Both the position numbers and the translations under genes were made by a program. The notes beneath the pieces are model-generated. The model saw only the letters and a program-made list of their open reading frames with translations, had not been told where the DNA came from and made no database searches. Shown here one piece after another: positions 1 to 64,000 of a DNA stretch of 64,000 nucleotides (position 1 is the stretch's first letter; each line of letters starts with the position of its first letter). Source of the DNA: Candidatus Heimdallarchaeum aukensis. Its GTDB lineage: Archaea; Asgardarchaeota; Heimdallarchaeia; Heimdallarchaeales; Heimdallarchaeaceae. Location: positions 960,001 through 1,024,000 of the forward strand of contig CP084166.1 in assembly GCA_021513695.1 (NCBI GenBank), in the 5' to 3' direction.

Positions 1-1584
1 AAGTAGTGTGAAAATGCTTCATCTGCTAAAAGTTGTAGTTGTTCATAAAGGTTTAAGCTGAACTAAGTAGTGTGAAAATTGTGCTACATATATACACACC
101 TATATCCTGTTTATCGTTTAAGCTGAACTAAGTAGTGTGAAAATATCCTGATAGGTGAGTCCTACAGGAGAAAGAAAAAGTTTAAGCTGAACTAAGTAGT
201 GTGAAAATATCCTGATAGGTGAGTCCTACAGGAGAAAGAAAAAGTTTAAGCTGAACTAAGTAGTGTGAAAATCCCAATAGCATCCTCTTTTATCTGGGGC
301 TTGGTTTATGTTTAAGCTGAACTAAGTAGTGTGAAAATCTGTGATTTCTGCGGAAATAAACATGTGACGGAAAGTTTAAGCTGAACTAAGTAGTGTGAAA
401 ATGCAACTCTTTCCGTCCAGCGCACTAAAGCTGCTTTTGGGTTTAAGCTGAACTAAGTAGTGTGAAAATGTTTTTCATGGTAGCTTGCTACCAAAAATTT
501 ACTTAAAAGTTTAAGCTGAACTAAGTAGTGTGAAAATGAGACTGTTAATAGCGAAGTCAGATTCCTCAAAAGGTGTTTAAGCTGAACTAAGTAGTGTGAA
601 AATTTGTCTTTACACAGGGCATTCTCAGTTCTGGAGGAAGTTTAAGCTGAACTAAGTAGTGTGAAAATCACATAAACAAATTAGAAAGCGAAATAACCAC
701 AGTTGTTTAAGCTGAACTAAGTAGTGTGAAAATCAATATTCTTCATCTTCTTCTAAATCATACAATAGCGTTTAAGCTGAACTAAGTAGTGTGAAAATAG
801 AAAAGAGGAACCGTTGTTCTTAAAGGTAAAAATCGTTTAAGCTGAACTAAGTAGTGTGAAAATAAAGAGTATTGAACTCCTGGTTCAAAACTGATTTTGC
901 AGTGTTTAAGCTGAACTAAGTAGTGTGAAAATTAATTGCTTTTTTGTCTGCATGACTTGGTAATTCAAAGTTTAAGCTGAACTAAGTAGTGTGAAAATTT
1001 CAAGGTGAGACCAACGATCCTGGTTACTTCGGTTGTTTAAGCTGAACTAAGTAGTGTGAAAATAATATGTAATTAAATAAGTTTTTATTGTGGTAAAATG
1101 TTTAAGCTGAACTAAGTAGTGTGAAAATACATTAAGAAAACGCTTACCATCTAAAGAAACAATCGTTTAAGCTGAACTAAGTAGTGTGAAAATTCATAAG
1201 TTGACCAATATTCAGAAATTACATAACGTTTAAGCTGAACTAAGTAGTGTGAAAATGAAAGCGTTTAGAATTGGTGGCGGTTCTGGTTGCAGGTTTAAGC
1301 TGAACTAAGTAGTGTGAAAATTACTGGGCAATGGAAAAAAGCTGTTGCCGCATTCAAGTTTAAGCTGAACTAAGTAGTGTGAAAATTAACTCACTCGCTC
1401 ACCCTCAGAGAGAGCCACAAACGTTTAAGCTGAACTAAGTAGTGTGAAAATTAATTTACGTCATGACTATGATGCGACCCCCAACGAGGTTTAAGCTGAA
1501 CTAAGTAGTGTGAAAATATTTGACTACTAGGTTTAGGTTTGAATATGAACCAGAGTTTAAGCTGAACTAAGTAGTGTGAAAAAA
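1..1584 (+). CRISPR. CRISPR array: 25 direct repeats (first one partial at the window edge) of the 29-bp unit GTTTAAGCTGAACTAAGTAGTGTGAAAAT, with 24 spacers of 34-40 bp. The last repeat (1555-1584) is degenerate (GAAAAAT).
   Basis: Seen directly: perfectly conserved 29-mer at regular 64-69 bp spacing (e.g. 51-79, 116-144, 180-208 ... 1489-1517, 1555-1583). The array continues beyond the 5' window edge. Orientation is inferred from the GTTT...GAAAAT repeat ends and from the degenerate repeat sitting at the 3' side. Confidence 0.97.
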
Positions 1585-1606
1585 TAGATTGCCGATTAAA
1601 TTTTCT

Positions 1607-2407
1607 TTATTTGTAGAACAAATGTGAAATTGAACAATAATATCTTTTCAATTCAATTAATTCTTTTTCACTTTGTAATTTATTTTTCTGCTTTTCTATT
1701 TCAGAAAAAACAAATTCTACATCCTCAACATCTGTAAGATCTAATATATTCATTATTGTTTCATTTACTATTCTATCCCAAACTGTTATTCTTTTTATGC
1801 ACTTGTTAAAGAAGTTGCTAATTGGATTTTGAAGATTAATCAATTTTCTTAATTCTATTAATGAAATTAATTGTTCATTCTCAAAATTCTTTAGATATCT
1901 TCTATTCATTTCTATTATAACTTCAATAATAGCTTTGATATTCTCTTCATTTATTTTATTTCCTCTTGATTCTTTTATTTTCGTCTTTTTATAAGAATTC
2001 ATCAGTAGATTAACCACAGTTACTAAATGTAAATCAAATTCCTGATTAATCGTTTCTTTTTTGTCTATTAACAAGTCTCTTGCTTTTAGGCCAAGCATCC
2101 AGGAAAAAAGTCCACTTAATTGTGAATTTACTAATAATTTACTATTTTCTTGTGATGTTTTAATTTCTCTAAGTTTGTCTTGATAGAAGGGATTAAACAT
2201 ACCAAAAACGTGAGATACAATCAAGTTGTCAATAAAGAAAGATTCAATTTGTTTTTTAATTTCTTTCTCTTCTGGATTTTTTGAACTTTTTTTCATCTTT
2301 TCAGCTATTTTTTTTAAATCAGTAAAATAGTCACATAATTTCTTATTTGAACTAGCCAAAAATTCGAAATCACTATTACCCATATCGTTAATATATCTCT
2401 TCAACAC
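1607..2407 (-). CDS. Hypothetical protein (266 aa) whose stop lies 22 bp from the last CRISPR repeat. No recognisable Cas motifs.
   Basis: Long ORF with protein-like composition. Adjacent to the array and convergent with it. Confidence 0.5.
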   Translation of the reverse strand: MLKRYINDMGNSDFEFLASSNKKLCDYFTDLKKIAEKMKKSSKNPEEKEIKKQIESFFIDNLIVSHVFGMFNPFYQDKLREIKTSQENSKLLVNSQLSGLFSWMLGLKARDLLIDKKETINQEFDLHLVTVVNLLMNSYKKTKIKESRGNKINEENIKAIIEVIIEMNRRYLKNFENEQLISLIELRKLINLQNPISNFFNKCIKRITVWDRIVNETIMNILDLTDVEDVEFVFSEIEKQKNKLQSEKELIELKRYYCSISHLFYK

Positions 2408-8066: not shown

Positions 8067-8187
8067 TCTAGGCCCACCTAATCCATTTGCACTTTTTTTC
8101 GAAACGCTTTTAAACATGCTCAAATATTTTTCATTGATTGAAGAATCTTTCTTCGGTCATAATAATAACAAATTAGAAGGAATTATT

Positions 8188-10281
8188 ATGAAAAAAAGAA
8201 TGTTAATAACAAGCATTTTCATTTTTGCCTTTTTAGTAGCAGTTATTCCTTTAACTGCAAATGCTAAAGTCCTTTCTACTAGAGCTACAAAGGATTTGGG
8301 CGGTGGAGATGCTTATAACGCATATAGTGCATCTGATTATGCAACCCTTATTAGTACACCTATTTCGGGTTACGGAGATATTTACTATTCCAGTGATCAG
8401 TATGATCAATACAAAGTAGCAGTAAGTTCAGGAGATCAAGTAACGATTGAGTTTACTGCCCCTAGTGGAGCAACAGGAATTGATCTTCCTGTTTATGACA
8501 CTGACAAGTCTCGAATACTCATTCGTTACAACATCCAGACTTTCTCCGAGACTGTTACTGCTTCTGGCAACGGTTACATTTACTTTACTATAGATGCAGA
8601 CACTTATGATGATAGAGGTACTTATTATCTCAGTGTTTCTAAATCTGGAGCAGTTGACACTACTCCACCTACTGTAAGTATTACTGACCCTGCTGATGGA
8701 GCAACTGTTTATTCTGCAGATGTCACTGTTTCATGGACTGGTTCTGACAATGTCGGCATAGACTATTACGAGGTCAGAATTGATGGTGGTTCATGGATCA
8801 ATGTCGGAACATCTACAAGCTACACCTTTACTGGTTTAGCTGACGGTAGTCATACTGTAGATGTTAACGCTTATGACGCTGCAGGAAATGTTGGTTCTGA
8901 CAGTGTAACTTTCACTGTTGATACCAGTGCTCCTCCTACTGAGTATACTTTCACTGGTTCACTTAGTGCTGGACAGGACAGTACTCAACACACCTTTAAC
9001 GTTCCTTCCAACACCATTAAGATCGAGGTTCAGCTTCAAATGCCCAGTGGTGCAGATTACGATTTAAGCCTTTGGGACTCTAATGGAGCTCGAACTGGTG
9101 GTTGGACTTCAACTGATAGTAGTACTAAAACAGATATTGCCAACAGTGATTATTCTGGTTATTCTGCTGATCCTGAGTGGGTTACTGTTGATCCTCCTGC
9201 TGTTTTTGGTACCTGGAAGACTGGTTGTTATGCTTACAGTGGTTCTGGTACTTACACCATCACTGTTACTCTAACGCTCAGTGGTCCAGATACTACTGCA
9301 CCTACTGTTACTATAACTGACCCAACAGATGGTTCTACAGTTAATTCTGCTGATGTTACTGTTTCATGGACTGGTTCTGACGATGTTGGTATTGACCACT
9401 ATGAAGTCAGAATCGATGGTGGTTCATGGATCAATGTTGGAACATCTACAAGCTACACCTTTACTGGTTTAGCTGACGGCAGTCACACTGTAGATGTTAA
9501 TGCCTATGATGCTGCAGGTAACGTTGGTTCTGACAGTGTGACTTTCACTGTTGATACCACTACCAATCCTGTTGAAAAATGGGCAGTTATTGTTGGTATT
9601 AGTGACTACAAAGCTATTAGTGATCTTTCTTACTGTGATGAGGATGCAACTGACTGGTATTATCAACTTACCAGCAGTCAAATGAGTTATGACCATATCA
9701 CTGTTTTAGGAGATGGATATTCTTCTAACTATCCTCAATGGGATGGCTATGCTACAGAGTACAATGTTAAACAAGCTTTGAACAACATGGTTAATTCTGC
9801 TGACTCTAATGACATTATAGCTTTCATCAGTTCTGGTCATGGTTCGGGTAATGGTGCAGGTTCTTCATACTTGTGTATGTGGGACTGCAGTTCAGGAGAA
9901 AACGGAGAAGATGGAAATCTCTATGACACTGAATTAGCAGCAATTCTTGACGGAGCTGTTGCTGACAGGATTTTCGTCTTCTTAGACCATTGTTACAGTG
10001 GTGGTTTTGGAGACGACCTCATGAATATGCCTAACAAAGACCGTGTTTACCTAACAACAACCTGTACAGAAAATGGTTATGGTTATGATGACTCCACTCA
10101 TCAAAATGGTGCTTGGACTTACTACTTCCTAGATTACTCTTGGCAGCAACATTTCGGTGGTGCAGCTAATGTTGCTATGGAAGACATCTTCGACTATGCT
10201 TTAGCTGCTTATCCATACAGTGGTGGAGACACTCCTCAAGAGTTCGATGGAAACACAGGTGCGTACTTCTACCTGGCATAA
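8188..10281 (+). CDS. Secreted multidomain protein. It has a signal peptide, two tandem near-identical Ig/FN3-like domains and a C-terminal caspase-like (clan CD; C13/C14-type His-Cys dyad) peptidase domain.
   Basis: MKKRMLITSIFIFAFLVAV signal, preceded by AGAAGG. Repeated motif 'TxPTVxITDPxDGxTVxSADVTVSWTGSD' twice. 'SSGHG' plus 'LDHCYSGGFG' His/Cys dyad. The ORF track starts at 8116, but Met at 8188 with an SD is the more likely start. Confidence 0.7.
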   Translation: MKKRMLITSIFIFAFLVAVIPLTANAKVLSTRATKDLGGGDAYNAYSASDYATLISTPISGYGDIYYSSDQYDQYKVAVSSGDQVTIEFTAPSGATGIDLPVYDTDKSRILIRYNIQTFSETVTASGNGYIYFTIDADTYDDRGTYYLSVSKSGAVDTTPPTVSITDPADGATVYSADVTVSWTGSDNVGIDYYEVRIDGGSWINVGTSTSYTFTGLADGSHTVDVNAYDAAGNVGSDSVTFTVDTSAPPTEYTFTGSLSAGQDSTQHTFNVPSNTIKIEVQLQMPSGADYDLSLWDSNGARTGGWTSTDSSTKTDIANSDYSGYSADPEWVTVDPPAVFGTWKTGCYAYSGSGTYTITVTLTLSGPDTTAPTVTITDPTDGSTVNSADVTVSWTGSDDVGIDHYEVRIDGGSWINVGTSTSYTFTGLADGSHTVDVNAYDAAGNVGSDSVTFTVDTTTNPVEKWAVIVGISDYKAISDLSYCDEDATDWYYQLTSSQMSYDHITVLGDGYSSNYPQWDGYATEYNVKQALNNMVNSADSNDIIAFISSGHGSGNGAGSSYLCMWDCSSGENGEDGNLYDTELAAILDGAVADRIFVFLDHCYSGGFGDDLMNMPNKDRVYLTTTCTENGYGYDDSTHQNGAWTYYFLDYSWQQHFGGAANVAMEDIFDYALAAYPYSGGDTPQEFDGNTGAYFYLA

Positions 10282-10486: not shown

Positions 10487-10693
10487 TTATTTTTCTGTTA
10501 TCCACATTTTATTGAAAGCTTTTCTTGTTGTTAGAATACTTGCTCCTATCCACGTTCTGTGCATTCTATCTGTGGTTGCTGTAATTCTTACAACTGCATT
10601 TTTTGGTGCAACTTTTTTCAATTCATAATCTATTCTTTCTCTCATTCCAGGTATCATTGAACTTCCTCCACATAAGATAACATTAGGCCACAA
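10487..10693 (-). pseudogene. Orphan C-terminal fragment of an actin-family gene (about 65 residues, lokiactin/actin-like). The rest of the gene is absent.
   Basis: Translation NVILCGGSSMIPGMRERIDYELKKVAPKNAVVRITATTDRMHRTWIGASILTTRKAFNKMWITEK aligns residue-by-residue with the actin C-terminus ([65 protein letters not shown]). It starts on TTG with an in-frame stop two codons upstream. Only ~240 nt separate it from the next gene, so a full ~1.1 kb actin cannot be present. Confidence 0.6.
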
Positions 10694-52920: not shown

Positions 52921-53361
52921 GTGATTGAGTCAGTCTATATTATTTCCCGAACAGGATTACCTTTACTTTATGTAGATTTTGTTTCACAAGAAGATGATGT
53001 AGATGCCGTAACTTTATTTTCTGGAATAATTTCAGCGATACAAGTAGCAATGGCTGAAATTGATGTAGGTGTTCCGTCATTCTTTGATACAGAAAAAAAT
53101 GAAATCTTCATGAATGTAACAGAAAAATTTGCTATTGCTGTAGTAAAAAACCAAGAACCAATAGATAGAAATGAAATGAATAAACTAATGGATCAAATTC
53201 AAACCCTAGTATCATTTGATCAAGAAGTGGAAGATTTTAGTACCATTAGTGATGAAACAAAAAATAAAATTTCCAAAAAAATAAGGGAAATAGTTAATAA
53301 CTGGGAAGACTATATTAGCGAGAGAGAAGCAACAAAAAGAATAACGGAATCATTATGGTAA
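52921..53361 (+). CDS. Roadblock/LC7 (MglB-like) domain protein.
   Basis: 'VIESVYIISRTGLPLLYVDF…DAVTLFSGIISAIQVAMAEIDVG…EIFMNVTEKFAIAVVKN' follows the roadblock beta-alpha-beta-beta pattern. GTG 52921 is the likely start; the ORF track gives 52855. Confidence 0.55.
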   Translation: MIESVYIISRTGLPLLYVDFVSQEDDVDAVTLFSGIISAIQVAMAEIDVGVPSFFDTEKNEIFMNVTEKFAIAVVKNQEPIDRNEMNKLMDQIQTLVSFDQEVEDFSTISDETKNKISKKIREIVNNWEDYISEREATKRITESLW

Positions 53362-54593: not shown

Positions 54594-55313
54594 ATGCGTA
54601 ATGTGGGTTTTATGAACAAATCATCCGTGAAAAGAAATTTAATGATTGTAAGAGAACAGGATGTTGTTGTTACTGGCGGTGTGGTTTTTATTGGAGATGG
54701 ACATACTGGCAAAACGCATACAGCTCTTAATCTTGTAAGAAATAAGGATAGATATAAGAAAACAGACTTGATCTCGAAGTCAATAAATGTAGAATTTGAC
54801 TATTTTGTTTATCAATCTAATTACCAACAGTATAAATTTACAATAAGTGCACAATTGTTTATATTTCCCGGGCAAAAAGGACGAGCGAAAAAAGGAGAAG
54901 GGTTAGCATTTGAGGATGCTCTAGACCTGTATTTTGATGTTAGAACGGTGAAAGAGGTTATTGTTCTAATACTAACTTTCAATCTTACAGATATAGCTAC
55001 ATTTCAAAACTTAGAATATTGGGTTAAAACAGCTATAGAGAATAATTTAGTCTCAGAAGCAACTAACATAATTTTGTTAGGTACTCACTACGATAAGAAA
55101 TCAAACATTGCTGTGAATGAAACAGATATTATACATGGAAAAAAATTTGTTCAAGAACAAATTGCTAATGAATTGAATATTGATTTTCCTCTGAAACAGA
55201 TCACTGAAGTGAATATATCAAATTTGACAGAAGAAGGTATCGAAAATTTAATTGGAGCGATTATAGACGCTTTTTTCAACGTTTTTAATATAGATGAGTT
55301 TAATTTAATTTAG
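54594..55313 (+). CDS. Divergent small GTPase (Ras-superfamily-like).
   Basis: P-loop 'GDGHTGKT'; G3-like 'IFPGQ'; G4-like 'LLGTHYDKK'; G5-like 'ISNL'. Confidence 0.6.
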   Translation: MRNVGFMNKSSVKRNLMIVREQDVVVTGGVVFIGDGHTGKTHTALNLVRNKDRYKKTDLISKSINVEFDYFVYQSNYQQYKFTISAQLFIFPGQKGRAKKGEGLAFEDALDLYFDVRTVKEVIVLILTFNLTDIATFQNLEYWVKTAIENNLVSEATNIILLGTHYDKKSNIAVNETDIIHGKKFVQEQIANELNIDFPLKQITEVNISNLTEEGIENLIGAIIDAFFNVFNIDEFNLI

Positions 55314-55334: not shown

Positions 55335-58300
55335 ATGAAGTTTCAAAAGCATATAATAATCACAATAAATTTTTTATTAATTTTACAGTCATTGTTATAT
55401 ATTCAAAATATTAGCAATTCACAAAAAGATAGACAGAATATTACTCAGATTATCCCAGGAAACATTGAAAACAATCAACAAGAGAGTATTTATCATTCAG
55501 ATGTTTCCTCAACAAATGTACATACAACTCTTACTCAAGGAACAAACAAAACTTTTGGTTTCTTTACGCAAGATAGCTATGTAAATTTAGATTCTGATGG
55601 AAATGTGTTTCAATGGGAAAAGTATGATGTTGTAAAAGATACAGGTGATAATAGTGTTTATGCTGATTTTGCAATGGATTACTCTTATTCTTATACTTGG
55701 CCAAGTTCTCCTAATAGCTATGTTCCATTAATTGATATTGAAACAGGAACACAACTAGCTTCAACCTTTAGTCCTCCTTTTTCAGAGACTACTTATCTAT
55801 CAGGAAAAGTTTACTTCTTAACATATATTTCCACTTATGTATCAAGTTTTACCATTACTTTAACTCTCAGAATTCGATTGTGGTTATATAATCCTAATGA
55901 TGGAGGACTTACAGAAATTTTAACTATCGAATCTGTTCTTCCCGATAATTCTGATTTAACACAACGTGTTTATTCTTCAACTTTAGAAGATAAAGTTACC
56001 ATCCCCTCAGGTTATAGATTAAAAGTAACTTATGAAGCAAAAACGAGCAGAATAGATAGAGCTGCTTATGTTCATCTTGAAACTGGAGAATATTCAGATG
56101 GTGACCAAGTTAACTGGCAGATAAATGACGCAGAGTATTCTAACACTTATACTTTAAATGACGTTACTTCAGCTCTAGGTGTACAGTTGTATATGTATGA
56201 TGAAACATATCCTACTATTTCAATTTCTGGAGCAGAAAACAATACGATTTATTACGATACTAATGAAATAACAATCAGTACATCTGGAGCAGTAAGTAAT
56301 TCCTACAAATGGGACAGTAATTCATATACTGCTTTTGATCCTCCTGTGAATACAACTCTCCCTTCATCAACAGGTTGGCATTATTTGTATATTCAAGCAC
56401 TAGATGAATATGATAACAAAAATGAAGTAGTATACAAAATAGGCTATGAAAGTTCTAGCATAGTTTTACATAATGCAAACAATAATTCTTTAGTTCCAAA
56501 TAATTTTCTTCTTAACTTTAGTTTGTCTGGATACGATTCAGCGCAATATGCTTGGGATAGTGGAGGAAATTATACTTTTTCTGATCCTTATGACATTTCA
56601 GTACCAGATTTCTCAGGAGAGCACACACTCTATATTTATACAGTAAGCAGCTTTGGAGAAAATAAAACTGTTTATGTTTTTGAAGTTGATAACAGCCCGC
56701 CCTTAATCTCCTTAAGAGACTTAAGCAACGATACTACACAACCTACAAACAAGAAAATTGAACTGAATATTACAGATCAAACTTCAACTATTGAAGTTCT
56801 ATATAATTGGGATAATGTTGCTAATTCAACCTGGAGCCCATTAGAAGGAACAATCTACCAAACTTTTGCTCCAGATACTGATGGTTTTCATTGGCTCAAT
56901 GTATATGCAAACGATAGTTTTGGTCATATTATTGATGTACATTACAGATTTAATATTAGTTCAGACTATTTGCTGGTAGAATTAAGAACAATGATAAATG
57001 ACAGTTATTATTACGGAGGAAACACAGTTGAGGTTACGATTACAGGTACAAATGGGACAATAAAGTATCAGTGGGACTCAAATGGATTCAAAGATGGGGT
57101 AACAGTTGATTCAATCTTGTCTTTATCAGGTTCAGAATCATTACCGAAAGACCTTGGAGTGCATTATCTTACAATAATAGTTGGAGATGTAGATGACAAT
57201 CCCAAATCAACTTTGTTTAAATTTACAATTGACCAAGAAAATCCTGTAGTTTCTAATTTTGGAAATTACAATAATTCAAGATTACACAGTTCCACAATAA
57301 TTGATCTTGAAATAACAGATAATTTTACTTTAAGTAGTGAAATAGAAGCATGGGTATCAATAGATGGAGGAGGAAATATATCTTTTACGTATCCCTATGA
57401 TATTAAAATATCTTCTTTAGAAGATGGAGTTCATAATATTACTGTTTTTGCCTTTGATATTGCGCGAAATAATGTTTCTTGCTTAATAATTTTTGAAATT
57501 GATACGACAGCTCCAGAAATAGATATTGTTTCCATTCAAGGGTTAGAAGTTTCTTCTAGCGGTGTTTCATATATTCCCGGAAATGCAGCAATTGAATGCT
57601 CTTTTGTTGATGCAGACCCCGAAATTTATCACTTTTATTCATGGAATAACTCAGCTTTTACACTATTTGCTGGAAATACTTTTAATTTACCTGATACTGA
57701 TGGAAACGCAACCCTACGCATTTTAGCTAATGATACATTAGGAAATGAGAAAATTTTAACATTAGATCTTTTTATAGACACTACTCCTCCTCAATTGTCT
57801 ATACTGTTTCCTAATAACTACTCTAAAATCAATGAAGCGACACCTTTATTGTTTTTTGCTAATGATAGTGCAAGTGACACCATTTCTTCAATTTCTGCAA
57901 AATGGGACCAATTTCTAGAAGGAAAAATAGACCTTTCTCCACCTTATTTTACAATTTATTTATCAAGTCTTAAAAAACTCTATGAAGAGTTATCAGTTGC
58001 AGAGTTATATATTGATGCAAAAGATATTCTAGGAAATAATTTTACGTATATTTATTCATTTAATCTTGATTTTTCTCCGCCTTCCTACAATTTAGTAGGT
58101 GCCCAAAATAATACTTTTGTAAGAAGTGATACAATCCTTCAATTTGAAAATTTAAGTAATGACTTAATGAAGTTCGTTTATTATTGGGATTCTAATGATA
58201 TATCTATCTTAGATGATCCGTGGACTATATCAATACCAAATAATGATGGGGTACATAATCTTACAGTAATTCTTTACGATAACACAGGTGAGGGATATTA

Positions 58301-59942
58301 CCCAAATTGGGTTAAATCATTTTACACTTTTGTTGTTGATGATATTGGGATTGAAATTACTAGTCCGTCAAGTTTTTCCAATAATACAGAAGTTGGAATT
58401 GTATATAAACAATCATTTACCTTTTCTGTTGATGTCTACGATACAGCAGACAATCAAATTATAGATAATCTTAATTTTGTAATTTTAAACAATACACTGA
58501 ATCTAGAAATAGAGAATGAAACCTTAGATGGAAAAACATATACGATAACCATTCATGGTACAAATGTTGGATCAACAAGATTAATTTTTCAGTTTTCTAA
58601 GGGAAATTCGAATAAACATCAAATTGTTGTTCCTCTTACGATTGAAAAGAAAGAAGGAACAGTTTCATTGTTAGGGACAAGCGTCTTAAGCGTGATATAT
58701 GAAGAAAATTTCACTATAATACTGAATTTAGAGGATGAAAACTCTAATCTTTTAAATATTACCCGGGTGACTGTTAATGGTAGTTTAGTGAGCGATTTTA
58801 TCTATTTAGATGAATATCATGCTATACAATTTAATTATTCTTCAAGAGAAACAATAGGAAAAGGAGAATATAATCTGTTAGTTAATATTGAATCTAATTA
58901 TTACTATGGAGAAAAAATAATTGGCATTGAGGTTAAACCTATCCCTATTATTCTAAGTTTATCAGTCTCAAGTTATACTGTAATTGAAGGTTCTCAAGTT
59001 GCAATTACAGGAACTCTTACTTTTACAAATGGGACTCCGATACCTTCTATAACTCTATACTTTTCTATATATATAGTCTATAAGAATCAGTCCAATAATA
59101 ATGTCATGGCTCTGCCTTCAGAATACGGAAGTAAGGTTGTTTTCTCAGGATTAACTAATTCCTCTGGACAAGTAACGATTGCTTTTGAAATGACTTCAGA
59201 GATAGATTATATTTCAGTTGATTGTTCTTTTGGAGGGAGTAATATCTTTGACACAGTTTACTATGAAATGGAGGAATATATTTATTCTATACCTACTCCA
59301 AAACTTCCAACTTGGATATTATACACAATAATTGGTGGAAGTATTATATTGGCAGCAATAATCTCCTTTGTTGTTTATAAGCTTACTAGACCTAAACCAT
59401 TTGATGAGATATTAAATTCAATTTCTGATAATGATATCGTGATGAACATGACCCGTATCTGCCCTGGTGTTGTTCTATCAATCTTTGATCAACGCAAAGG
59501 TGCAATTCCATTAGTGTCTGATCATTCATTGGATTATAGTTACAGTGGAAGAATTAGGATAGGGCTTGAAAACTTTATGTTGAAAATTTCAGATCAAGCT
59601 TACTCTTCATTGGGCTTTGAAGAGCACCATTCTGGGCGTAGAACAGGAACAATTACTCTACCAAATGAAGGACTTGTAGGTTTTATTCATGGGATACAAT
59701 TGGAAAATAAAGCTGCGAGAGGAGGTTTTGAAAACCTTTCACTTATTGTGCTTGTAGAAAATGAGTACGGGACAATGTTACTTAGTTATCAAGAATACCT
59801 GTATCCCTTAATTGATGAGTTAATTTCCATGCTAAAAAATAAGAAACCGTTGGAGGATATTGAAGAACAATTATCGAATATACGTAGTCAAGCAACAAAA
59901 ACAGTTTTAGCTTCATTAGAATATGAAAATGCAATGTCTTAA
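55335..59942 (+). CDS. Giant (1535 aa) type-I membrane protein. It has a signal peptide, at least 7 extracellular Ig-like repeats each with a W-D-S motif, a single TM (59310-59390) and a ~180-aa cytoplasmic roadblock/longin-like domain.
   Basis: Repeated '…Y(K/A/Q)WDSN…' modules; TM 'WILYTIIGGSIILAAIISFVVYKL'; cytoplasmic '…ICPGVVLSIFDQRKGAIPLVSD…LSLIVLVENEYGTMLL…'. Confidence 0.6.
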   Translation: MKFQKHIIITINFLLILQSLLYIQNISNSQKDRQNITQIIPGNIENNQQESIYHSDVSSTNVHTTLTQGTNKTFGFFTQDSYVNLDSDGNVFQWEKYDVVKDTGDNSVYADFAMDYSYSYTWPSSPNSYVPLIDIETGTQLASTFSPPFSETTYLSGKVYFLTYISTYVSSFTITLTLRIRLWLYNPNDGGLTEILTIESVLPDNSDLTQRVYSSTLEDKVTIPSGYRLKVTYEAKTSRIDRAAYVHLETGEYSDGDQVNWQINDAEYSNTYTLNDVTSALGVQLYMYDETYPTISISGAENNTIYYDTNEITISTSGAVSNSYKWDSNSYTAFDPPVNTTLPSSTGWHYLYIQALDEYDNKNEVVYKIGYESSSIVLHNANNNSLVPNNFLLNFSLSGYDSAQYAWDSGGNYTFSDPYDISVPDFSGEHTLYIYTVSSFGENKTVYVFEVDNSPPLISLRDLSNDTTQPTNKKIELNITDQTSTIEVLYNWDNVANSTWSPLEGTIYQTFAPDTDGFHWLNVYANDSFGHIIDVHYRFNISSDYLLVELRTMINDSYYYGGNTVEVTITGTNGTIKYQWDSNGFKDGVTVDSILSLSGSESLPKDLGVHYLTIIVGDVDDNPKSTLFKFTIDQENPVVSNFGNYNNSRLHSSTIIDLEITDNFTLSSEIEAWVSIDGGGNISFTYPYDIKISSLEDGVHNITVFAFDIARNNVSCLIIFEIDTTAPEIDIVSIQGLEVSSSGVSYIPGNAAIECSFVDADPEIYHFYSWNNSAFTLFAGNTFNLPDTDGNATLRILANDTLGNEKILTLDLFIDTTPPQLSILFPNNYSKINEATPLLFFANDSASDTISSISAKWDQFLEGKIDLSPPYFTIYLSSLKKLYEELSVAELYIDAKDILGNNFTYIYSFNLDFSPPSYNLVGAQNNTFVRSDTILQFENLSNDLMKFVYYWDSNDISILDDPWTISIPNNDGVHNLTVILYDNTGEGYYPNWVKSFYTFVVDDIGIEITSPSSFSNNTEVGIVYKQSFTFSVDVYDTADNQIIDNLNFVILNNTLNLEIENETLDGKTYTITIHGTNVGSTRLIFQFSKGNSNKHQIVVPLTIEKKEGTVSLLGTSVLSVIYEENFTIILNLEDENSNLLNITRVTVNGSLVSDFIYLDEYHAIQFNYSSRETIGKGEYNLLVNIESNYYYGEKIIGIEVKPIPIILSLSVSSYTVIEGSQVAITGTLTFTNGTPIPSITLYFSIYIVYKNQSNNNVMALPSEYGSKVVFSGLTNSSGQVTIAFEMTSEIDYISVDCSFGGSNIFDTVYYEMEEYIYSIPTPKLPTWILYTIIGGSIILAAIISFVVYKLTRPKPFDEILNSISDNDIVMNMTRICPGVVLSIFDQRKGAIPLVSDHSLDYSYSGRIRIGLENFMLKISDQAYSSLGFEEHHSGRRTGTITLPNEGLVGFIHGIQLENKAARGGFENLSLIVLVENEYGTMLLSYQEYLYPLIDELISMLKNKKPLEDIEEQLSNIRSQATKTVLASLEYENAMS

Positions 59943-60049: not shown

Positions 60050-61462
60050 ATGTCTTATCTTTTAGATGAGTTAAAGAGGAAAAAACAAGCTGAAACCGAC
60101 GAAACCATTGATAAAATACTTCTAATGGGACTTCAAGAAGCTGGAAAAACAGCTATTAAAGATGTTGTTTTTTTTGATAAAGATCCTGAAGAAGTTGTAG
60201 AATATATGGCAACAACTCATTATCAAAGACAAATCATTGGAGACAAAAAAAAGAATTTACTTATCGATTCAGGAGGACAAGAAACTTACTGGAACGAAGC
60301 AGTAACATATTTTCGCTACTTGATTTTTTCTAATGCTAAAATCCTTATTTGGGTGGTAGATTTAACTCATCCTGAACTTTTTGATGAATCAGAAAGAAGA
60401 TTTAGCTTCACAATTAGACAATTTAAGAAAGAGAACAAAGATGGAAAGGTCTATGTTTTTTGTCATAAAGCTGATGTTGTTGAACCAGAAAAACTAGATG
60501 CAGTAGTTGAGCATGTAAAAGAACTGTTATCTGATCCCAAATTTGAGATTGAATTTAAAATTACATCAATATTCAAAAAAAATGAGTTAAAGCAAATAAT
60601 GAATAAAATTCTCGAAGAATCTTCAATTGATCAAGAACAAATAGAACTTGTCACTGATGTTGAAAAGAAAATTGAAGAAAGCCCTGAATTTGTTAAATTT
60701 CTAGAAGAACATAAAGCAGATCCACGAGTTAAAGAACTCATGGAATATATTAAACCTCAACCAAAACAATATTTACCTTCATTTGGGAAAGTAGAAGTAG
60801 ATGTGAACCTTGAAAATTATGGTATTATTGAAATCATTATACTTGATAAAGAAACATTGAAGCCAGCAATAGGAGCTTCATCACATATCATCTCTAATAA
60901 AAAACAATCATTTGAATATATTCTGGCTCTTAATTATTTTAAAAACTTAATAAAATCAAAAGAACAGAAAATTGAAGCTCTTGGAAGTACCTTTAGTTAT
61001 CCTGAAGGTGAAGTTCATGCATTGATTTTTAATTTGAAGAATAGTTACATTATAATTACCTCATTTAATGAAATAGATGAAAACATAAAAAAGGAATTAT
61101 ACAAATTTATTCTCAAATTTTCAGATGAAATGGTAAAAGAAAAATCACTCGTTAAAGAAGAAAGCATTTCTAAACCCCCTAGTATAGCAACTGAACAAAG
61201 CGTTGAAATAGAACAATCAATAGCCCAAGAAGTGAAAAAAGATGAAAAGAAGGTTTTTGCAGAAGAAGTTTCTTCAACGCAAAAAGAAACTTTAGTCAAA
61301 GAAGATGAAGAACAAAAACAAATGATAAAACAAGTCTCCTCTGAAAAAGCTAAATTAGAAGAAAAGAAAAATGGAGTAGGTTTAGATATTACAGAGAGAG
61401 ACATAACTAAAATAGCTAAATTTCTATATGATCAGCTGGATAAAGAAAAAAAAGAAGAGTGA
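60050..61462 (+). CDS. Rag/Gtr-like GTPase with a C-terminal roadblock-like domain and an acidic/lysine-rich tail.
   Basis: G1 'GLQEAGKT', G3 'DSGGQE', G4 'CHKADV' (HKxD as in Rag/Gtr), 'ITSIF' after the G domain. CRD '…YGIIEIIILD…VHALIFNLKNSYIIITSF'. SD AGGAG before ATG 60050. Confidence 0.7.
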   Translation: MSYLLDELKRKKQAETDETIDKILLMGLQEAGKTAIKDVVFFDKDPEEVVEYMATTHYQRQIIGDKKKNLLIDSGGQETYWNEAVTYFRYLIFSNAKILIWVVDLTHPELFDESERRFSFTIRQFKKENKDGKVYVFCHKADVVEPEKLDAVVEHVKELLSDPKFEIEFKITSIFKKNELKQIMNKILEESSIDQEQIELVTDVEKKIEESPEFVKFLEEHKADPRVKELMEYIKPQPKQYLPSFGKVEVDVNLENYGIIEIIILDKETLKPAIGASSHIISNKKQSFEYILALNYFKNLIKSKEQKIEALGSTFSYPEGEVHALIFNLKNSYIIITSFNEIDENIKKELYKFILKFSDEMVKEKSLVKEESISKPPSIATEQSVEIEQSIAQEVKKDEKKVFAEEVSSTQKETLVKEDEEQKQMIKQVSSEKAKLEEKKNGVGLDITERDITKIAKFLYDQLDKEKKEE

Positions 61463-62686
61463 TTAAACTGGTCTACTTTTTCCAATACTTCTGTATTCAC
61501 AGTTATTGTCAAGAAGAATTGGAATCTCTCTCATTTCAGTTATACATTCATGAATTGGGTATAATTCTATAGTTGTAGTACCAAATCCTTTCTTAATTTG
61601 AATTGCATGCTCAAAATTATCAGCATTCTCTAAAGCTACCTCTAATATTGATTTATGTAATTCTCTTCCACAAATGTCACATTTAAAGTAAATTTGCTTA
61701 TTGATCTTGGTTTCTAATTGTTCTTTGTTTAATATGTTATGAGATTCGAAAAAGGTAATCAATTTATCTTTAACCTTTATTTTAGCAACAGAGATGACTT
61801 CTTCTGTTTTGAACATTTTTCTCATTTGATCACAAATTTCATGAAAAGTAGAAATCTGCTGATTTAACTGTTCTTGCGAAGAAAAAACTGAAGTAATGAC
61901 AAGGTCTTCTTCGATTTCTCTAATAAATATCCTTGAGTCACTCAAAGAAAAGACAATATAATTCAAATCAAGACTAGGTGAGTAGATCTTAACTAGTTCA
62001 GAGCGTAATCTGGAAAGATTGAGATTAACTTCTTTTTCTGGTTCAGAGTATAAAACCAAACCTTTGGAAGTTGATAGGGTTAGAAGATTTAGATTATATT
62101 CTGATACTATCTCTTGAATGTTAGAAGCTTTTGTTAGGTCTCTAGGATAAACAACAGAAAAAATTCTTTGCATTGCATCCCATATATTCTCTTCAAAGAT
62201 AGAAGTTTCATAGATTTCAGAATTGGGATACTTGCTCAACTCAAAAATATCTTTAATTGAACGTGTAATAGCAGCCCTTTTGTCAACAGGAACAACATCC
62301 ATTTTATGGGCGAAAACATAGATTCTAGCGCTAGAACCAATTTTTTTAAGATTATCCAAAGTAAGATCAAAATAATATTTAGAACGCATGATGTTAGAAG
62401 CATCAGAAATATCAACAACATAAATCAAAGCTTTAAGGTCACTAAAAGTTCTTTCAGTATATTTCTCAAAAAGCTCATTTAAATAAGAAGATTGACCTCC
62501 TACATCAACAAGATTAATAGAACTTCCTGCAAAATTGAAAAGCTTACGATTAATTCGAACTGTAGCAGGATTAAGAGAAGTTGCTTGAGGAGCAAAGCCT
62601 TCAAAAACAACTTGACGAATAGAAGTTTTACCAGATTGAGATAACCCCAGAATAACAATTTTTGATTGAAGTGAACGATCATTCAT
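61463..62686 (-). CDS. Rag/Gtr-like GTPase with a C-terminal roadblock-like domain and a terminal zinc ribbon.
   Basis: G1 'GLSQSGKTS', G3 'LVDVGGQ', 'LIYVVDI', G4 'AHKMDV'. '…YETSIFEENIWDAMQRIFSVVYPR' parallels RagA '[21 protein letters not shown]'. 'CDICG…' zinc ribbon. Confidence 0.8.
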   Translation of the reverse strand: MNDRSLQSKIVILGLSQSGKTSIRQVVFEGFAPQATSLNPATVRINRKLFNFAGSSINLVDVGGQSSYLNELFEKYTERTFSDLKALIYVVDISDASNIMRSKYYFDLTLDNLKKIGSSARIYVFAHKMDVVPVDKRAAITRSIKDIFELSKYPNSEIYETSIFEENIWDAMQRIFSVVYPRDLTKASNIQEIVSEYNLNLLTLSTSKGLVLYSEPEKEVNLNLSRLRSELVKIYSPSLDLNYIVFSLSDSRIFIREIEEDLVITSVFSSQEQLNQQISTFHEICDQMRKMFKTEEVISVAKIKVKDKLITFFESHNILNKEQLETKINKQIYFKCDICGRELHKSILEVALENADNFEHAIQIKKGFGTTTIELYPIHECITEMREIPILLDNNCEYRSIGKSRPV

Positions 62687-63344
62687 TATATAATAATTAA
62701 ATCATACGAACTTAAAAAAGTGATTATTATCAAATTTATTTTGCAAAAAAAAGTAATTTCTATTATTCTTTATGCTAAAGGGTATTTGGAAATAAAACAT
62801 GCTTATTACACCCTATTCAAAAATTCAAACTAGTACTTAAAATAACTAAAATAATTTTAGTAAAAGTGAATTTAACATCTATCTAAATCTTAATAAAATT
62901 TTAACATTGTTTGAATTCGGTGGCAAAAAATGGGTGAATACGTTTGTCTACAAAGATTTTATGAATAATAAAGTATTCTCACTTAGCAGACCCACTAAAA
63001 AGCCACAGCAGTATTTTTCTAGCTACTTGGAGTTAATAGGTAATACACCTTTAGTTTTTTTGAATAAGGTGAGTAAAGCTATTAACCACGAACTCTATGA
63101 TTTACTTTTTTACGTAAAGTTTTTCGCGCTCTGTCTTGCAAGAGAGAAAACAAGTAAAAGTTTAATCTCTTGAACTCAACCAAGCCATACAATGCTATGA
63201 AGAGGATGAGACAGACATCATACACGAATCGTGGGAATCATAAAGAAGAAAAGAACTAAAAACTCTTTTCTTCACTCCACGAGAGACAAAAAGAAAGAAA
63301 GATTTCCTCCTCCTACAGGAGAGAATTTGTCCTTTCGTTTTTGT

Positions 63345-64000
63345 CTACTGGGACTGCAACCAATGGCTGAGCCCTAGGCAAACAGTGAAATGGGTAGAAC
63401 TGTATCTTTGACCAGTGAGGTAATCAGTGATAGTGTTTCCTTGAGGACTGAAAAGAGCACCAAGGAACTTACGAGCGATATTCATTGCTCCTGTGAGGTC
63501 AGAGTGGAAAGTGTAATTGCAAGAAGAACAATGAACTAAACCTCTTACTGGACGGACAACTTTCCTTCCACAACGAGCACAGTGAGAAGATGTCCCTTTT
63601 TCCTCTATCGTTAATATTCGGTGAGGGTCAAAACCTCTTAATATTAGTGCCCGACGGAGAAGAGTAAGAACAAGGTAAAAATTCCACTGATGAAGTTTCC
63701 TGCGAAACTTACGAGTACTTTTACCTTTCTCTTTTCCTTTCTCCTCGCGAACATGTTTAGGGTAACCTACAACGACGAAAAGGTCATACATTCGCGCATA
63801 GGTCTCTATCGTCTGCACAACCTCACTTACAAATTGGTAAATATAGGCTCGTTTAACGTTTCTATATCTTCTTCGAAGAAGACTAAGAAAACGATAAACT
63901 TGATGTTTTTTACCCGACTGGTCGTTTAAAGCTGCTTTTCTCTGAAGACGGGAAAGTTTGACTTTATATCGATGGTTGACTCTATTCCACTGTTTGGTAT
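63345..64000 (-). CDS. tnpB: TnpB-like (IS200/IS605 OrfB family) protein, C-terminal ~215 aa. The gene continues past the 3' window edge.
   Basis: Minus-strand frame is open to the window end ('TKQWNRVNHRYKVKLSRLQRKAALNDQSGKK…'). Zinc finger 'CARCGRKV…CSSCN'; RuvC-III-like 'SDLTGAMNIA'. Confidence 0.65.
   Translation of the reverse strand, partial: TKQWNRVNHRYKVKLSRLQRKAALNDQSGKKHQVYRFLSLLRRRYRNVKRAYIYQFVSEVVQTIETYARMYDLFVVVGYPKHVREEKGKEKGKSTRKFRRKLHQWNFYLVLTLLRRALILRGFDPHRILTIEEKGTSSHCARCGRKVVRPVRGLVHCSSCNYTFHSDLTGAMNIARKFLGALFSPQGNTITDYLTGQRYSSTHFTVCLGLSHWLQSQ

What the first reader, a model, noticed from the sequence alone, without database searches (positions are those of the whole stretch)
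1..64000. Provenance inference: Asgard (Lokiarchaeia-like) archaeon
Several features together point this way: ~30% GC; archaeal-type promoters and oligo-T terminators; an actin-like relic; Rag-type GTPases with HKxD; multiple roadblock domains; abundant zinc-ribbon proteins; HdrA/MvhD; TnpB-rich mobile content. This is the profile reported for low-GC Lokiarchaeia genomes. If so, the GTPase island is directly relevant to the origin of eukaryotic nutrient-signalling machinery.
Basis: inference. Interest (0 to 1): 0.5.

Follow-up and report, generated by a model that had tools for sequence, protein, structure and literature searches.

The report
Asgard window is Heimdallarchaeum, not Loki
This 64-kb window is a piece of the already published closed genome of the Asgard archaeon Candidatus Heimdallarchaeum aukensis (class Heimdallarchaeia, not Lokiarchaeia), so the provenance guess is right at the Asgard level and wrong at the class level, and its GTPase island proves to be a conserved Rag-like GTPase plus folliculin-type longin gene cluster worth testing.

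Summary
GC is 31.6%. TATA-like boxes pile up 20-29 nt before start codons, and oligo-T runs follow 33 of 52 stop codons. The window also holds a truncated actin pseudogene, two Gtr1/RagA-family GTPases with HKMD/HKAD, roadblock/longin domains, zinc ribbons, MvhD plus two HdrA, and two TnpB genes.

The provenance call is only half right. Sixteen of 20 window proteins are residue-identical to GenBank proteins UJG41612-UJG41672, in colinear order. These come from the circular 3,081,793-bp genome of Candidatus Heimdallarchaeum aukensis (Wu et al. 2022). Three assembled contigs of run SRR15988954 match the window at 100% over 33 kb. No named relative is Lokiarchaeial. The window is therefore Asgard, class Heimdallarchaeia, and already known.

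The order small GTPase, 1535-aa surface protein, Rag-like GTPase, then a convergent second Rag-like GTPase recurs in all 21 informative Heimdallarchaeota loci. The giant protein's cytoplasmic tail is a confident longin domain. Its best eukaryotic structural matches are folliculin, Lst4, FNIP2 and NPRL2, the Rag-GAP longins. The family keeps the "GP motif" (GA in this window's copy) and an invariant arginine in the same loop as folliculin R164. A membrane-anchored Rag regulator is inferred, not shown.

The parts
1..1583 (+). CRISPR array. It has 24 perfect copies of GTTTAAGCTGAACTAAGTAGTGTGAAAA(T) plus a partial copy at the window edge. There are 23 spacers of 34-40 nt, one of them duplicated. 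The array runs off the window start.
8116..10281 (+). 721-aa surface protein with bacterial Ig-like domains. GenBank UJG41617.1, annotated 'caspase family protein'.
10490..10825 (-). Actin pseudogene fragment. It covers the C-terminal ~112 codons and ends at the natural stop. It has two in-frame stop codons, and the N-terminal two thirds are absent.
11279..12041 (+). Small IS bounded by perfect 16-nt terminal inverted repeats, with an rve-type integrase ORF (11335-12033). Its right end coincides with a synteny breakpoint against 98-99% identical strains.
14166..23473 (+). Sulfur-relay / heterodisulfide-reductase-like cluster. It holds three TusA-like genes, an FCSD/SQR-like flavoprotein, three DsrE-like genes (one on the minus strand), wHTH regulators, MvhD (18211-18630), two HdrA-type genes (18644-19927, 19931-21958) and a 2x[4Fe-4S] membrane protein (22244-23473).
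36990..38208 (+). TnpB (OrfB_IS605 plus Cas12f1-like TNB domains). It is frameshifted: the N-terminal ~100 codons lie in another frame.
52921..53361 (+). Small protein of ~146 aa in the roadblock/longin superfamily. It is not syntenic with the GTPase cluster in other species.
54612..55313 (+). Divergent Ras-superfamily small GTPase. P-loop is GDGxxGKT, G3 is xPGQ, and G4 is THxD in place of NKxD. It lies 21 nt upstream of the giant gene.
55335..59942 (+). 1535-aa type-I membrane protein. It has an N-terminal signal/anchor, a ~1300-aa ectodomain with no confident Pfam domain, and a TM helix. The cytoplasmic tail (window 59262-59939) is a folliculin-class longin domain.
60050..61462 (+). Rag/Gtr-like GTPase (470 aa from the ATG; the ORF opens at 59990), with HKAD as G4. 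The post-G region has a roadblock-like secondary-structure pattern. An acidic linker and a conserved C-terminal motif follow.
61463..62686 (-). Rag/Gtr-like GTPase of 407 aa (UJG41672.1), with HKMD as G4. It has a C-terminal roadblock domain, a long helix and a Cys2-His-Cys beta-rich domain. It is convergent with the previous gene, stop codon to stop codon.
63345..64000 (-). Second TnpB, C-terminal part with its zinc finger. It is unrelated at the DNA level to the first copy and is cut by the window end.

Best explanation
The window is a contiguous 64-kb stretch of the published, circularised genome of Candidatus Heimdallarchaeum aukensis PM71. This is an Asgard archaeon of class Heimdallarchaeia, family Heimdallarchaeaceae, enriched from Auka hydrothermal-vent sediment in the Pescadero Basin.

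The window holds ordinary chromosomal content: transporters, a sulfur-relay/Hdr cluster and peptidases. It also holds the repeat-rich mobile content described for that genome: a CRISPR array, an IS, two TnpB genes and an intragenic tandem repeat.

Its 'GTPase island' is a gene cluster conserved across Heimdallarchaeota. The order is a divergent small GTPase, then a giant type-I surface protein whose cytoplasmic tail is a folliculin/NPRL2-class longin domain, then a Rag/Gtr-like GTPase, then a second, convergent Rag/Gtr-like GTPase with a C-terminal roadblock domain.

Inferred mechanism, at about 0.4:
- The two Rag-like proteins pair through their roadblock domains, as RagA/RagC and Gtr1/Gtr2 do.
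- They are held at, and regulated from, the cytoplasmic membrane by the longin tail of the giant protein, acting as GAP or as tether.
- This would couple something sensed outside the cell to a GTPase switch inside.

Shown: provenance, domain folds, motif conservation and gene-order conservation. Inferred: dimerisation, GAP activity, and which GTPase is the client.
For: Provenance.
- 16 of 20 window proteins are residue-identical to UJG41612.1 ... UJG41672.1 of Ca. H. aukensis, on a 3,081,793-bp contig. Accession order follows window order. The four misses are ORFs whose longest-ORF start probably differs from the called start, as checked for the 490-aa ORF: the same-run Logan assembly calls that gene at 470 aa. 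The annotated 233-aa small GTPase likewise starts downstream of its 239-aa ORF.
- Logan contigs of run SRR15988954 are 100% identical to the window over 8,627, 4,832 and 19,752 bp.
- The source paper describes the closed genome, its placement with 76 marker genes, and its CRISPR arrays, transposases and intragenic repeats.
- Named homologues of the Rag-like GTPase and of the longin tail are almost all Heimdallarchaeota.

Island.
- Both Rag-like proteins pass the Pfam Gtr1_RagA threshold. Their best PDB sequence hits are Gtr1/RagA.
- The model of the 407-aa protein shows an alpha-beta-beta-alpha-beta-beta-beta-alpha domain at residues 184-291. Its top 40 Foldseek hits are two-domain Rag/Gtr chains.
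- The longin tail model has pLDDT 89.6.
- The FDQxKG[P/A]xP motif sits at the start of beta2, with GP in 24/29 sequences. An invariant R lies in the ARGG motif of the beta4-beta5 loop. [quoted passage not shown]
- Gene order is conserved in 21/21 informative loci for the GTPase pair, 20/20 for the giant gene and 12/14 for the small GTPase. The genes stay linked in the rearranged locus L027.
Against: Provenance.
- An exact 70-mer from hdrA was not found in the GTDB representative-genome collection. The best locus there is only 58% identical, so neither Heimdallarchaeum genome seems to be in that collection.
- I therefore did not align the window to the GenBank chromosome itself.

Mechanism.
- There is no sequence-level similarity between the tail and any solved structure.
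- hhalign against folliculin is not significant (probability 0.5%).
- The window's own copy has GA, not GP.
- The roadblock domain of the 490-aa GTPase could not be confirmed by sequence.
- The G domain of the 407-aa model is poorly predicted at residues 15-64.
- The two Rag-like genes are convergent, not co-transcribed.
- Archaea have no TOR, so any 'nutrient signalling' output is unknown.
Confidence: 0.95

Rival explanations
1. One reading: the window comes from a low-GC Lokiarchaeia genome, such as a relative of Prometheoarchaeum or Lokiarchaeum.
For: GC of 31.6%, Asgard signature proteins, TnpB and zinc ribbons are also typical of Lokiarchaeia. Solved Lokiarchaeal Rag-like GTPases and a Lokiarchaeal longin domain are structural neighbours of the window's proteins.
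Against: Exact protein identities point to Ca. Heimdallarchaeum aukensis. No Lokiarchaeal name appears among cluster mates, 66 + 45 homologues or 29 GTDB loci. The Lokiarchaeal structures match only at fold level, at 13-18% identity.
Confidence: 0.01
2. The window is Asgard but from another class, or is a chimeric or mis-binned assembly. Some cluster members are labelled Freyarchaeota, Thorarchaeota or Bathyarchaeia.
For: - P0162 and P0254 sit on a 2,280-bp contig labelled Freyarchaeota.
- P0049, P0087 and L011 are labelled Thorarchaeota, and L019 is labelled Bathyarchaeia.
Against: - These are single short contigs or MAG bins among dozens of Heimdallarchaeota labels.
- The source genome is circular and closed, with PCR-verified end joining.
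- Accession order is colinear over the whole window.
- An independent assembly of the same run reproduces 33 kb at 100%.
Confidence: 0.03
3. Island, alternative mechanism A. The longin tail is not a GAP. It would be a passive membrane anchor or dimerisation platform, Ragulator-like, or a GEF like most longin complexes (Mon1-Ccz1, TRAPP, DENN).
Against: The top eukaryotic matches are specifically the Rag-GAP longins. The family keeps both the GP position and an invariant loop arginine.
Confidence: 0.3
4. Island, alternative mechanism B. The GTPases serve the biogenesis, secretion or surface display of the giant protein, SR-beta/SRP-receptor-like. Alternatively they serve cell polarity or protrusion control, MglA/MglB-like. 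Either way they would not be signalling.
For: The 407-aa protein also matches Pfam SRPRB and Arf, and sources name it 'signal recognition particle receptor subunit beta'. The small GTPase's G3 xPGQ recalls MglA (own knowledge). A roadblock/longin protein lies 1.2 kb upstream.
Against: Gtr1_RagA is the best Pfam and PDB match for both large GTPases. A profile of the small GTPase finds Rab-like proteins, not MglA. The upstream roadblock/longin gene is not conserved with the cluster.
Confidence: 0.2

Closest known systems
Candidatus Heimdallarchaeum aukensis PM71, circular genome (Wu et al. 2022, Nat Microbiol, PMC8813620)
   Same: Residue-identical proteins in the same order. The same kinds of repeats are present: CRISPR array, transposases and an intragenic tandem repeat. 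The same sequencing run reproduces the DNA at 100%.
   Different: Nothing detected. The window appears to be part of this genome.
Lokiarchaeia genomes (Prometheoarchaeum syntrophicum MK-D1, Lokiarchaeum ossiferum)
   Same: Low GC, actin, Rag-like GTPase-roadblock fusions, roadblock and longin proteins. One MK-D1 Rag-like pair sits in an operon and is predicted to heterodimerise.
   Different: A different class. No close or named Lokiarchaeal homologue was found for the proteins tested. MK-D1 is reported to have few repeats, and its GTPase genes are generally not linked to roadblock or longin genes.
Eukaryotic Rag/Gtr GTPases with their longin GAP complexes (FLCN-FNIP / Lst7-Lst4; GATOR1 / SEACIT Nprl2-Nprl3)
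   Same: - GTPase plus C-terminal roadblock architecture, with HKxD as G4.
- Two paralogues encoded side by side.
- A longin domain whose nearest eukaryotic structural neighbours are FLCN, Lst4, FNIP2 and NPRL2.
- G-[P/A] at the start of beta2, and an Arg in the beta4-beta5 loop like FLCN R164.
   Different: - The longin domain is the tail of a 1535-aa transmembrane surface protein, not part of a soluble DENN-type heterodimer.
- There is no DENN domain, Ragulator, TOR or lysosome.
- The 407-aa GTPase has an extra Cys2-His-Cys domain.
- Neither paralogue is clearly RagA-type as opposed to RagC-type.
- Activity is untested.
Solved Asgard Rag-like GTPases LokiRagO (8yl2) and LokiRagM (8zla, 9m28), and the Lokiarchaeal roadblock-longin protein (8yqg)
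   Different: Identity is only 13-18%. They come from a different class. They are soluble proteins, and the tools used here gave no genomic context or published gene-cluster information for them.
GP-motif 'FLCN/SMCR8-type' longin proteins of Heimdallarchaeia (PMC12290439, Traffic 2025)
   Same: GAP-longin-like fold with a GP motif and a conserved arginine, and presence in Heimdallarchaeia.
   Different: That paper leaves the client GTPase open. I could not check whether its 15 sequences include this family, because no supplement is held. UniRef calls this protein only 'Ig-like domain-containing', and no Pfam domain is on record for any tail homologue.
MglA/MglB (bacterial and archaeal small GTPase with roadblock GAP)
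   Same: A small GTPase with a nearby roadblock-superfamily protein, and a roadblock/longin fold acting on a Ras-superfamily GTPase.
   Different: A profile of the small GTPase does not retrieve MglA. The nearby roadblock/longin gene is not conserved with the cluster.

Membership tests
Candidatus Heimdallarchaeum aukensis genome (Heimdallarchaeia) | Proteins identical to the deposited genome and in the same order | tested here: met
   16/20 exact matches to UJG41612-UJG41672, colinear with window coordinates. Lineage.
Candidatus Heimdallarchaeum aukensis genome (Heimdallarchaeia) | Nucleotide identity to the deposited chromosome | tested here: inconclusive
   The chromosome itself could not be fetched. 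Three Logan contigs of run SRR15988954 are 100% identical over 33.2 kb. Related JGI contigs are 96-99% identical.
Candidatus Heimdallarchaeum aukensis genome (Heimdallarchaeia) | Marker-gene phylogeny placing the genome in Heimdallarchaeia | not testable with these tools
   The window has no ribosomal proteins, rRNA or tRNA. Placement rests on the 76-marker tree of PMC8813620.
Lokiarchaeia | Closest relatives of the window's genes are Lokiarchaeial | tested here: not met
   No Lokiarchaeal name among cluster mates, homologues or GTDB loci.
Asgard archaea (Promethearchaeati) | Eukaryotic signature proteins (actin, Rag/Gtr GTPase, roadblock/longin) in an archaeal genomic background | tested here: met
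Rag/Gtr GTPase family | G domain of the Gtr1/RagA type | tested here: met
   PF04670 at 112.8 and 84.3 bits, cut-off 22. The best PDB hits are Gtr1/RagA.
Rag/Gtr GTPase family | G4 motif HKxD in place of NKxD | tested here: met
   HKMD and HKAD. H127, K128 and D130 are invariant in 30 orthologues. That this motif is typical of Rag/Gtr is from my own knowledge.
Rag/Gtr GTPase family | C-terminal roadblock domain | tested here: met
   Met for the 407-aa protein: model topology, and two-domain Foldseek matches over 240-330 columns. The model has a mean pLDDT of only 67. For the 490-aa protein the result is inconclusive.
Rag/Gtr GTPase family | Obligate heterodimer of two paralogues through the roadblock domains | not testable with these tools
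   Only adjacency is shown: convergent neighbours in 21/21 informative loci. No complex prediction was available.
GAP-type longin domains (FLCN, NPRL2, SMCR8, C9orf72) | Longin fold closest to this class | tested here: met
GAP-type longin domains (FLCN, NPRL2, SMCR8, C9orf72) | GP motif at the loop/beta2 boundary | tested here: met
   Met for the family: GP in 24/29 sequences. The window's own copy and four others have GA. G80 and P83 are invariant. The definition is from PMC12290439.
GAP-type longin domains (FLCN, NPRL2, SMCR8, C9orf72) | Catalytic arginine finger next to the GP motif | tested here: inconclusive
   An invariant R lies in the 'ARGG' beta4-beta5 loop. It aligns with FLCN R164 in a non-significant hhalign alignment, using an FLCN sequence recalled from memory and checked only by its length (579) and the position of R164. 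Spatial proximity was not measured.
GAP-type longin domains (FLCN, NPRL2, SMCR8, C9orf72) | GAP activity on a Rag or Arf GTPase, within a longin heterodimer | not testable with these tools
   This needs biochemistry. No partner longin was identified in the conserved cluster.
Actin | Intact actin-fold ORF | tested here: not met
   Only residues equivalent to 247-360 are present, with two in-frame stops. A 68-aa ORF from the same relic in a near-identical contig carries PF00022.

The most novel reading that the evidence does not exclude
Heimdallarchaeia carry a conserved four-gene module. In it, a giant surface-exposed transmembrane protein presents a folliculin/NPRL2-type GAP longin domain to a pair of Rag/Gtr-like GTPases, and to a divergent small GTPase, at the cytoplasmic membrane. 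This would be a prokaryotic, plasma-membrane forerunner of the lysosomal Rag / Rag-GAP switch. It would also name Rag-like GTPases as the long-sought partners of the GP-motif Asgard longins.
Probability: 0.4. Interest if true: 0.75.

Novelty: already known. Interest (0 to 1): 0.35.

Why it matters
The provenance itself is a bookkeeping result. The sequence is a published genome, and the correct class is Heimdallarchaeia. That correction matters for any evolutionary argument built on the window, because Heimdallarchaeia are one of the lineages proposed as closest to eukaryotes.

The useful by-product is the gene cluster. [quoted passage not shown] Here such a longin domain is physically linked, across at least 20 Heimdallarchaeota species-level genomes, to two Rag-like GTPases and one small GTPase, and it is fused to a transmembrane surface protein.

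This yields a concrete experiment with four purifiable parts. The question it addresses is how the eukaryotic nutrient-sensing Rag switch began.

Tried and rejected
- Exact 70-nt hdrA string in the GTDB representative genomes: no match. The later protein-guided scan found only loci at 58% identity or less, so the two Heimdallarchaeum genomes seem absent from that collection.
- Full-text search for SRR15988954: nothing.
- tRNA scan and Rfam scan of the window: nothing.
- Three CRISPR spacers against IMG/VR: no exact match. No spacer has an 18-nt self-match in the window.
- Roadblock domain of the 490-aa GTPase: a profile against PDB, hhalign against the 407-aa family, and Pfam over 10 orthologues all gave nothing. 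It stays an inference from the secondary-structure pattern.
- The 168-aa ORF against the Rag and longin-tail profiles by hhalign: no relation. It was classified only after a library-wide search gave a family.
- Sequence profile of the longin tail against PDB: nothing. hhalign against human folliculin was not significant.
- The idea that the small GTPase is MglA-like, because of its xPGQ G3 motif: not supported, since the profile finds weak Rab-like hits only.
- The idea that the actin gene was cut by the neighbouring IS: not supported as such. The relic ends about 450 bp from the IS, with no actin-like sequence between them.
- Flanking inverted repeats for the inverted GNAT segment: none convincing.
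- Supplement of PMC12290439, to see whether this longin family was already listed: not held.

Full report
**Task and outcome.** The finding is a provenance guess for the whole 64-kb window, "Asgard, Lokiarchaeia-like", based on a list of sequence features.

**Composition and expression signals.**
- The window has 31.6% GC, and 28-37% in 4-kb bins.
- About 52 ORFs of 85 aa or more cover about 81% of it.
- TATA-like hexamers upstream of these genes are strongly concentrated 20-29 nt before the start codon. That one 10-nt bin holds 31 of 87 hits, where about 7 are expected (p about 1e-12).
- Runs of five or more T lie within 40 nt after 33 of 52 stop codons. The rate is 26.5% in intergenic background on both strands (p 2.5e-8).
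- This is the pattern of archaeal promoters on short-leader or leaderless mRNAs with oligo-T termination. The assignment of that pattern to archaea is from my own knowledge.
- No tRNA and no Rfam family was found.

**Gene content (Pfam scans).**
- EamA and MFS transporters, a HIT protein and an Ig-domain surface protein.
- An rve-type integrase and an M14 carboxypeptidase.
- A sulfur-relay/Hdr cluster: TusA x3 (precomputed hits), an FCSD/SQR-like flavoprotein, DsrE-like x3, MvhD, two HdrA-type proteins and a 2x[4Fe-4S] membrane protein.
- A CbiMQO-type ECF transporter, a caspase-domain protein and a creatininase.
- Two TnpB genes, a beta-helix surface protein, a HAD hydrolase, a nitrilase-family hydrolase and a coiled-coil protein.
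- The GTPase island.
- Zinc-ribbon-type CxxC pairs outside Fe-S proteins occur in about eight proteins.

**Actin relic.** tblastn with human beta-actin (sequence from memory) matches residues 247-360 to window 10825..10490 on the minus strand, at 36% identity and E 4e-17, with two in-frame stops. Upstream of that point the frame holds nothing actin-like, so the N-terminal two thirds are missing. A 68-aa ORF from the same relic, 94% identical and carrying a precomputed Pfam Actin hit, sits on a 2,280-bp MAG contig. That contig also carries the neighbouring Ig/caspase gene. The relic is therefore real and shared by close relatives.

**Provenance.**
- Exact-sequence look-ups of 20 window proteins found 16 in the collection. 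Each is identical to a GenBank protein of "MAG: Candidatus Heimdallarchaeum aukensis" on a 3,081,793-bp contig. Accessions run UJG41612.1 to UJG41672.1 and locus tags K9W45_03895 to K9W45_04185, both rising in step with window coordinates.
- The four misses are ORFs whose longest-ORF start probably differs from the called start. This was checked for the 490-aa ORF, which the Logan assembly calls at 470 aa. The small GTPase is likewise annotated at 233 aa against its 239-aa ORF.
- NCBI taxonomy places the species in Promethearchaeati; Heimdallarchaeota; Heimdallarchaeia; Heimdallarchaeales; Heimdallarchaeaceae.
- Contigs assembled independently (Logan) from run SRR15988954 are 100% identical to the window over 8,627, 4,832 and 19,752 bp. 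Five JGI metagenome contigs are 96-99% identical.
- The genome is described in Wu et al. 2022 (PMC8813620). It was circularised from an alkane-amended enrichment of Auka vent sediment in the Pescadero Basin, and placed by 76 concatenated markers in the Heimdall group. It is noted for CRISPR arrays, multiplied transposases and intragenic tandem repeats. All three kinds of repeat are visible in the window.
- Among more distant relatives, the named homologues of the 407-aa GTPase (66 hits) and of the longin tail (45 hits), and the titles of 29 GTDB loci, are overwhelmingly Heimdallarchaeota, Heimdallarchaeaceae or "Asgard group". None is Lokiarchaeial. A few carry Thor-, Frey- or Bathyarchaeial labels on short contigs or single bins, most likely binning noise.
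The listed features are generic Asgard traits and cannot separate the two classes.

**The two Rag-like GTPases.**
- ORF 61463-62686(-) (407 aa) and ORF 59990-61462(+) (470 aa from the ATG at 60050) both pass the Pfam Gtr1_RagA threshold.
- Both find Gtr1/RagA as their best solved relatives, at E 1e-23 and 2e-11. RagC/Gtr2 follow.
- They have HKMD and HKAD as G4. Their G domains are 34% identical to each other.
- Thirty orthologues of the 407-aa protein are 48-58% identical over the full length. Invariant residues include H127, K128, D130, C336, C339, H379 and C381.
- An AlphaFold2 model (mean pLDDT 67; G-domain residues 15-64 poorly predicted) shows an alpha-beta-beta-alpha-beta-beta-beta-alpha domain at 184-291, a long helix, and a beta-rich C-terminal domain holding the Cys2-His-Cys residues.
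- Its 40 best Foldseek matches in the PDB are all two-domain RagA/C or Gtr1/2 chains. Solved Lokiarchaeal Rag-like GTPases (8yl2, 8zla) and roadblock proteins follow.
- For the other GTPase, the region after the G domain has a roadblock-like secondary-structure pattern, but no sequence method confirmed it.

**The giant protein.**
- ORF 55335-59942 encodes 1535 aa. It has an N-terminal hydrophobic anchor, a long ectodomain without confident Pfam domains, a TM helix followed by K/R residues, and a tail of about 185 aa.
- The tail is the best conserved part, at 51-65% identity against about 36% for the ectodomain.
- Its homologues carry no Pfam annotation, and the named ones are Heimdallarchaeial.
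- With a 29-sequence alignment, the model has mean pLDDT 89.6 and a beta-beta-alpha-beta-beta-beta-alpha-alpha longin core after the TM helix.
- Foldseek's best hits are a Lokiarchaeal longin domain (8yqg), GATOR1, FLCN-FNIP2 and Lst4.
- The family motif FDQxKG[P/A]xP places G-P (24 of 29 sequences; G-A in the window) at the first residues of beta2. An arginine in the "ARGG" motif of the beta4-beta5 loop is invariant.
- PMC12290439 defines exactly these two elements, a GP motif at the loop/beta2 boundary and a neighbouring arginine finger, as the signature of GAP longins (FLCN, NPRL2, SMCR8, C9orf72). It reports them in a class of Heimdallarchaeial longins and leaves the client GTPase open.
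- In human folliculin the catalytic R164 lies in "SLARGFQR" between the equivalent strands. I recalled the FLCN sequence from memory and checked it only by its length of 579 and the position of R164. A non-significant hhalign alignment puts the two arginines in register. I count this as consistent, not as proof.

**Conservation of the cluster.**
- The protein-guided scan of GTDB representative genomes returned 29 loci. I searched them with the island's proteins.
- Wherever the contig extends more than 1 kb beyond the 407-aa gene (21 loci), the second Rag-like gene is its convergent neighbour.
- The giant gene follows in 20 of 20 informative loci.
- The small GTPase follows in 12 of 14. Two loci have a second giant paralogue there instead.
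- In L027 the order is rearranged, yet the four genes remain adjacent.
- The upstream roadblock/longin gene (52921-53361) and the membrane protein (53379-54122) are not part of the conserved set.
- That small protein belongs to a family of ~147-aa proteins. The family profile hits dynein roadblock at E 5.5e-4. Individual members match Pfam Fuz_longin_1 (14 of 36), Robl_LC7 (12) and Sybindin (10).
- The small GTPase (54612-55313) is a divergent Ras-superfamily protein with invariant GDGxxGKT, xPGQ and THxD motifs, and only weak Rab-like matches.

**Mechanism.**
- Shown: the folds, the motifs and the conserved linkage.
- Inferred (about 0.4): the two Rag-like proteins dimerise through their roadblock domains, as Gtr1/Gtr2 do, and the membrane-anchored longin tail regulates or tethers them. 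This would link an extracellular protein to an intracellular GTPase switch.
- Rivals: a non-catalytic scaffold or GEF role for the tail (about 0.3), and a role of the GTPases in biogenesis of the giant protein or in polarity (about 0.2).
- Asgard Rag-like GTPases with roadblock or longin fusions, and a predicted heterodimeric pair in MK-D1, are already published. Lokiarchaeal Rag-like structures are in the PDB.
- What I did not find described is the fusion of a folliculin-class longin to a giant surface protein and its conserved linkage to Rag-like genes. Two full-text searches found no such report, but my literature access is partial.

**Verdict.** The island offers a specific, testable lead.

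Noticed in passing
window 1-1583: A CRISPR array that the finding does not mention. It has 24 perfect 28/29-nt repeats (GTTTAAGCTGAACTAAGTAGTGTGAAAAT) and 23 spacers of 34-40 nt. One spacer is present twice in tandem (145-179 and 209-243). The last repeat is slightly degenerate, and the array continues beyond the window start. Three spacers had no exact match in IMG/VR, and none self-targets the window.
   Followed up: partly
window 51614-52834, inverted piece about 52309-52500: A GNAT acetyltransferase gene on the minus strand has its central ~190 bp, carrying motif A (HHQHRRKGLAKMM), in the opposite orientation. Re-inverting it in silico restores one 361-aa ORF and raises the Pfam Acetyltransf_9 score from 26.6 to 34.9 bits. 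An independent Logan assembly of the same run has the same arrangement at 100% identity, so it is not a scaffolding artefact. No flanking inverted repeats were seen. Whether it is a dead gene or a switch is unknown.
   Followed up: partly
window 11279-12041; L032, L033, L035: The small rve-type IS with perfect 16-nt terminal inverted repeats sits exactly at a synteny breakpoint. Contigs 98-99% identical to the window match only to the right of position ~12042. To the left they carry a different region, which includes a stretch 77-81% identical to window 63091-63611, next to the second TnpB. This suggests mobile-element-associated rearrangement between very close strains.
   Followed up: partly
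window 36990-38208: The first TnpB gene is frameshifted. The N-terminal ~100 codons are in another frame, so it is probably a pseudogene or contains a sequencing error. It has no DNA similarity to the TnpB at the window end.
   Followed up: partly
window 14166-23473: A compact cluster combines three TusA-like, three DsrE-like and one FCSD/SQR-like gene with MvhD, two HdrA-type genes and a membrane Fe-S protein. It looks like a sulfur-transfer module coupled to an Hdr/Mvh-type electron-bifurcating unit rather than methanogen-type heterodisulfide reduction. It is conserved in all five related JGI contigs.
   Followed up: no
window 48223-48316: An intragenic tandem repeat encodes about 20 Glu-Gln dipeptides at the C-terminus of a membrane protein (47574-48323). 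This is the kind of intragenic repeat reported for this genome.
   Followed up: no
window 59990-61462; L003-L030: Orthologues of the 490-aa Rag-like GTPase are 520-730 aa. The extra length is a long acidic, proline- and glutamate-rich linker placed before a conserved C-terminal motif (..I.F.A.DI..FA.FL..). The window's copy has the shortest linker. The function of the terminal motif is unknown.
   Followed up: no
L021, L022, L025, L017; proteins P0112, P0131, P0133: In some Heimdallarchaeota the TM helix plus longin tail seems to be a separate protein of 250-350 aa rather than the end of the giant protein. The evidence is split tblastn hits and complete short homologues. The longin module may therefore be separable from the ectodomain.
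   Followed up: no
L032:504-1601 (minus strand): In the related strains, a 365-aa multi-pass membrane protein at the position of the window's IS ends in a segment that reads like another roadblock/longin domain (..VLIVDREGNPILGY..AASGFLSSLF..). Membrane-anchored roadblock/longin tails may be a recurrent theme in this lineage.
   Followed up: no
window 8116-10281 and 34825-35625: There are two caspase-related genes. One is a 721-aa Ig-domain surface protein annotated 'caspase family' in GenBank, although Pfam found only Ig-like domains here. The other is a 266-aa protein with a Peptidase_C14 domain.
   Followed up: no
Database quirks. Neither Heimdallarchaeum closed genome appears in the GTDB representative collection that was searched. 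Several short contigs with near-identical Heimdallarchaeaceae genes are deposited under Freyarchaeota, Thorarchaeota or Bathyarchaeia labels.
   Followed up: no
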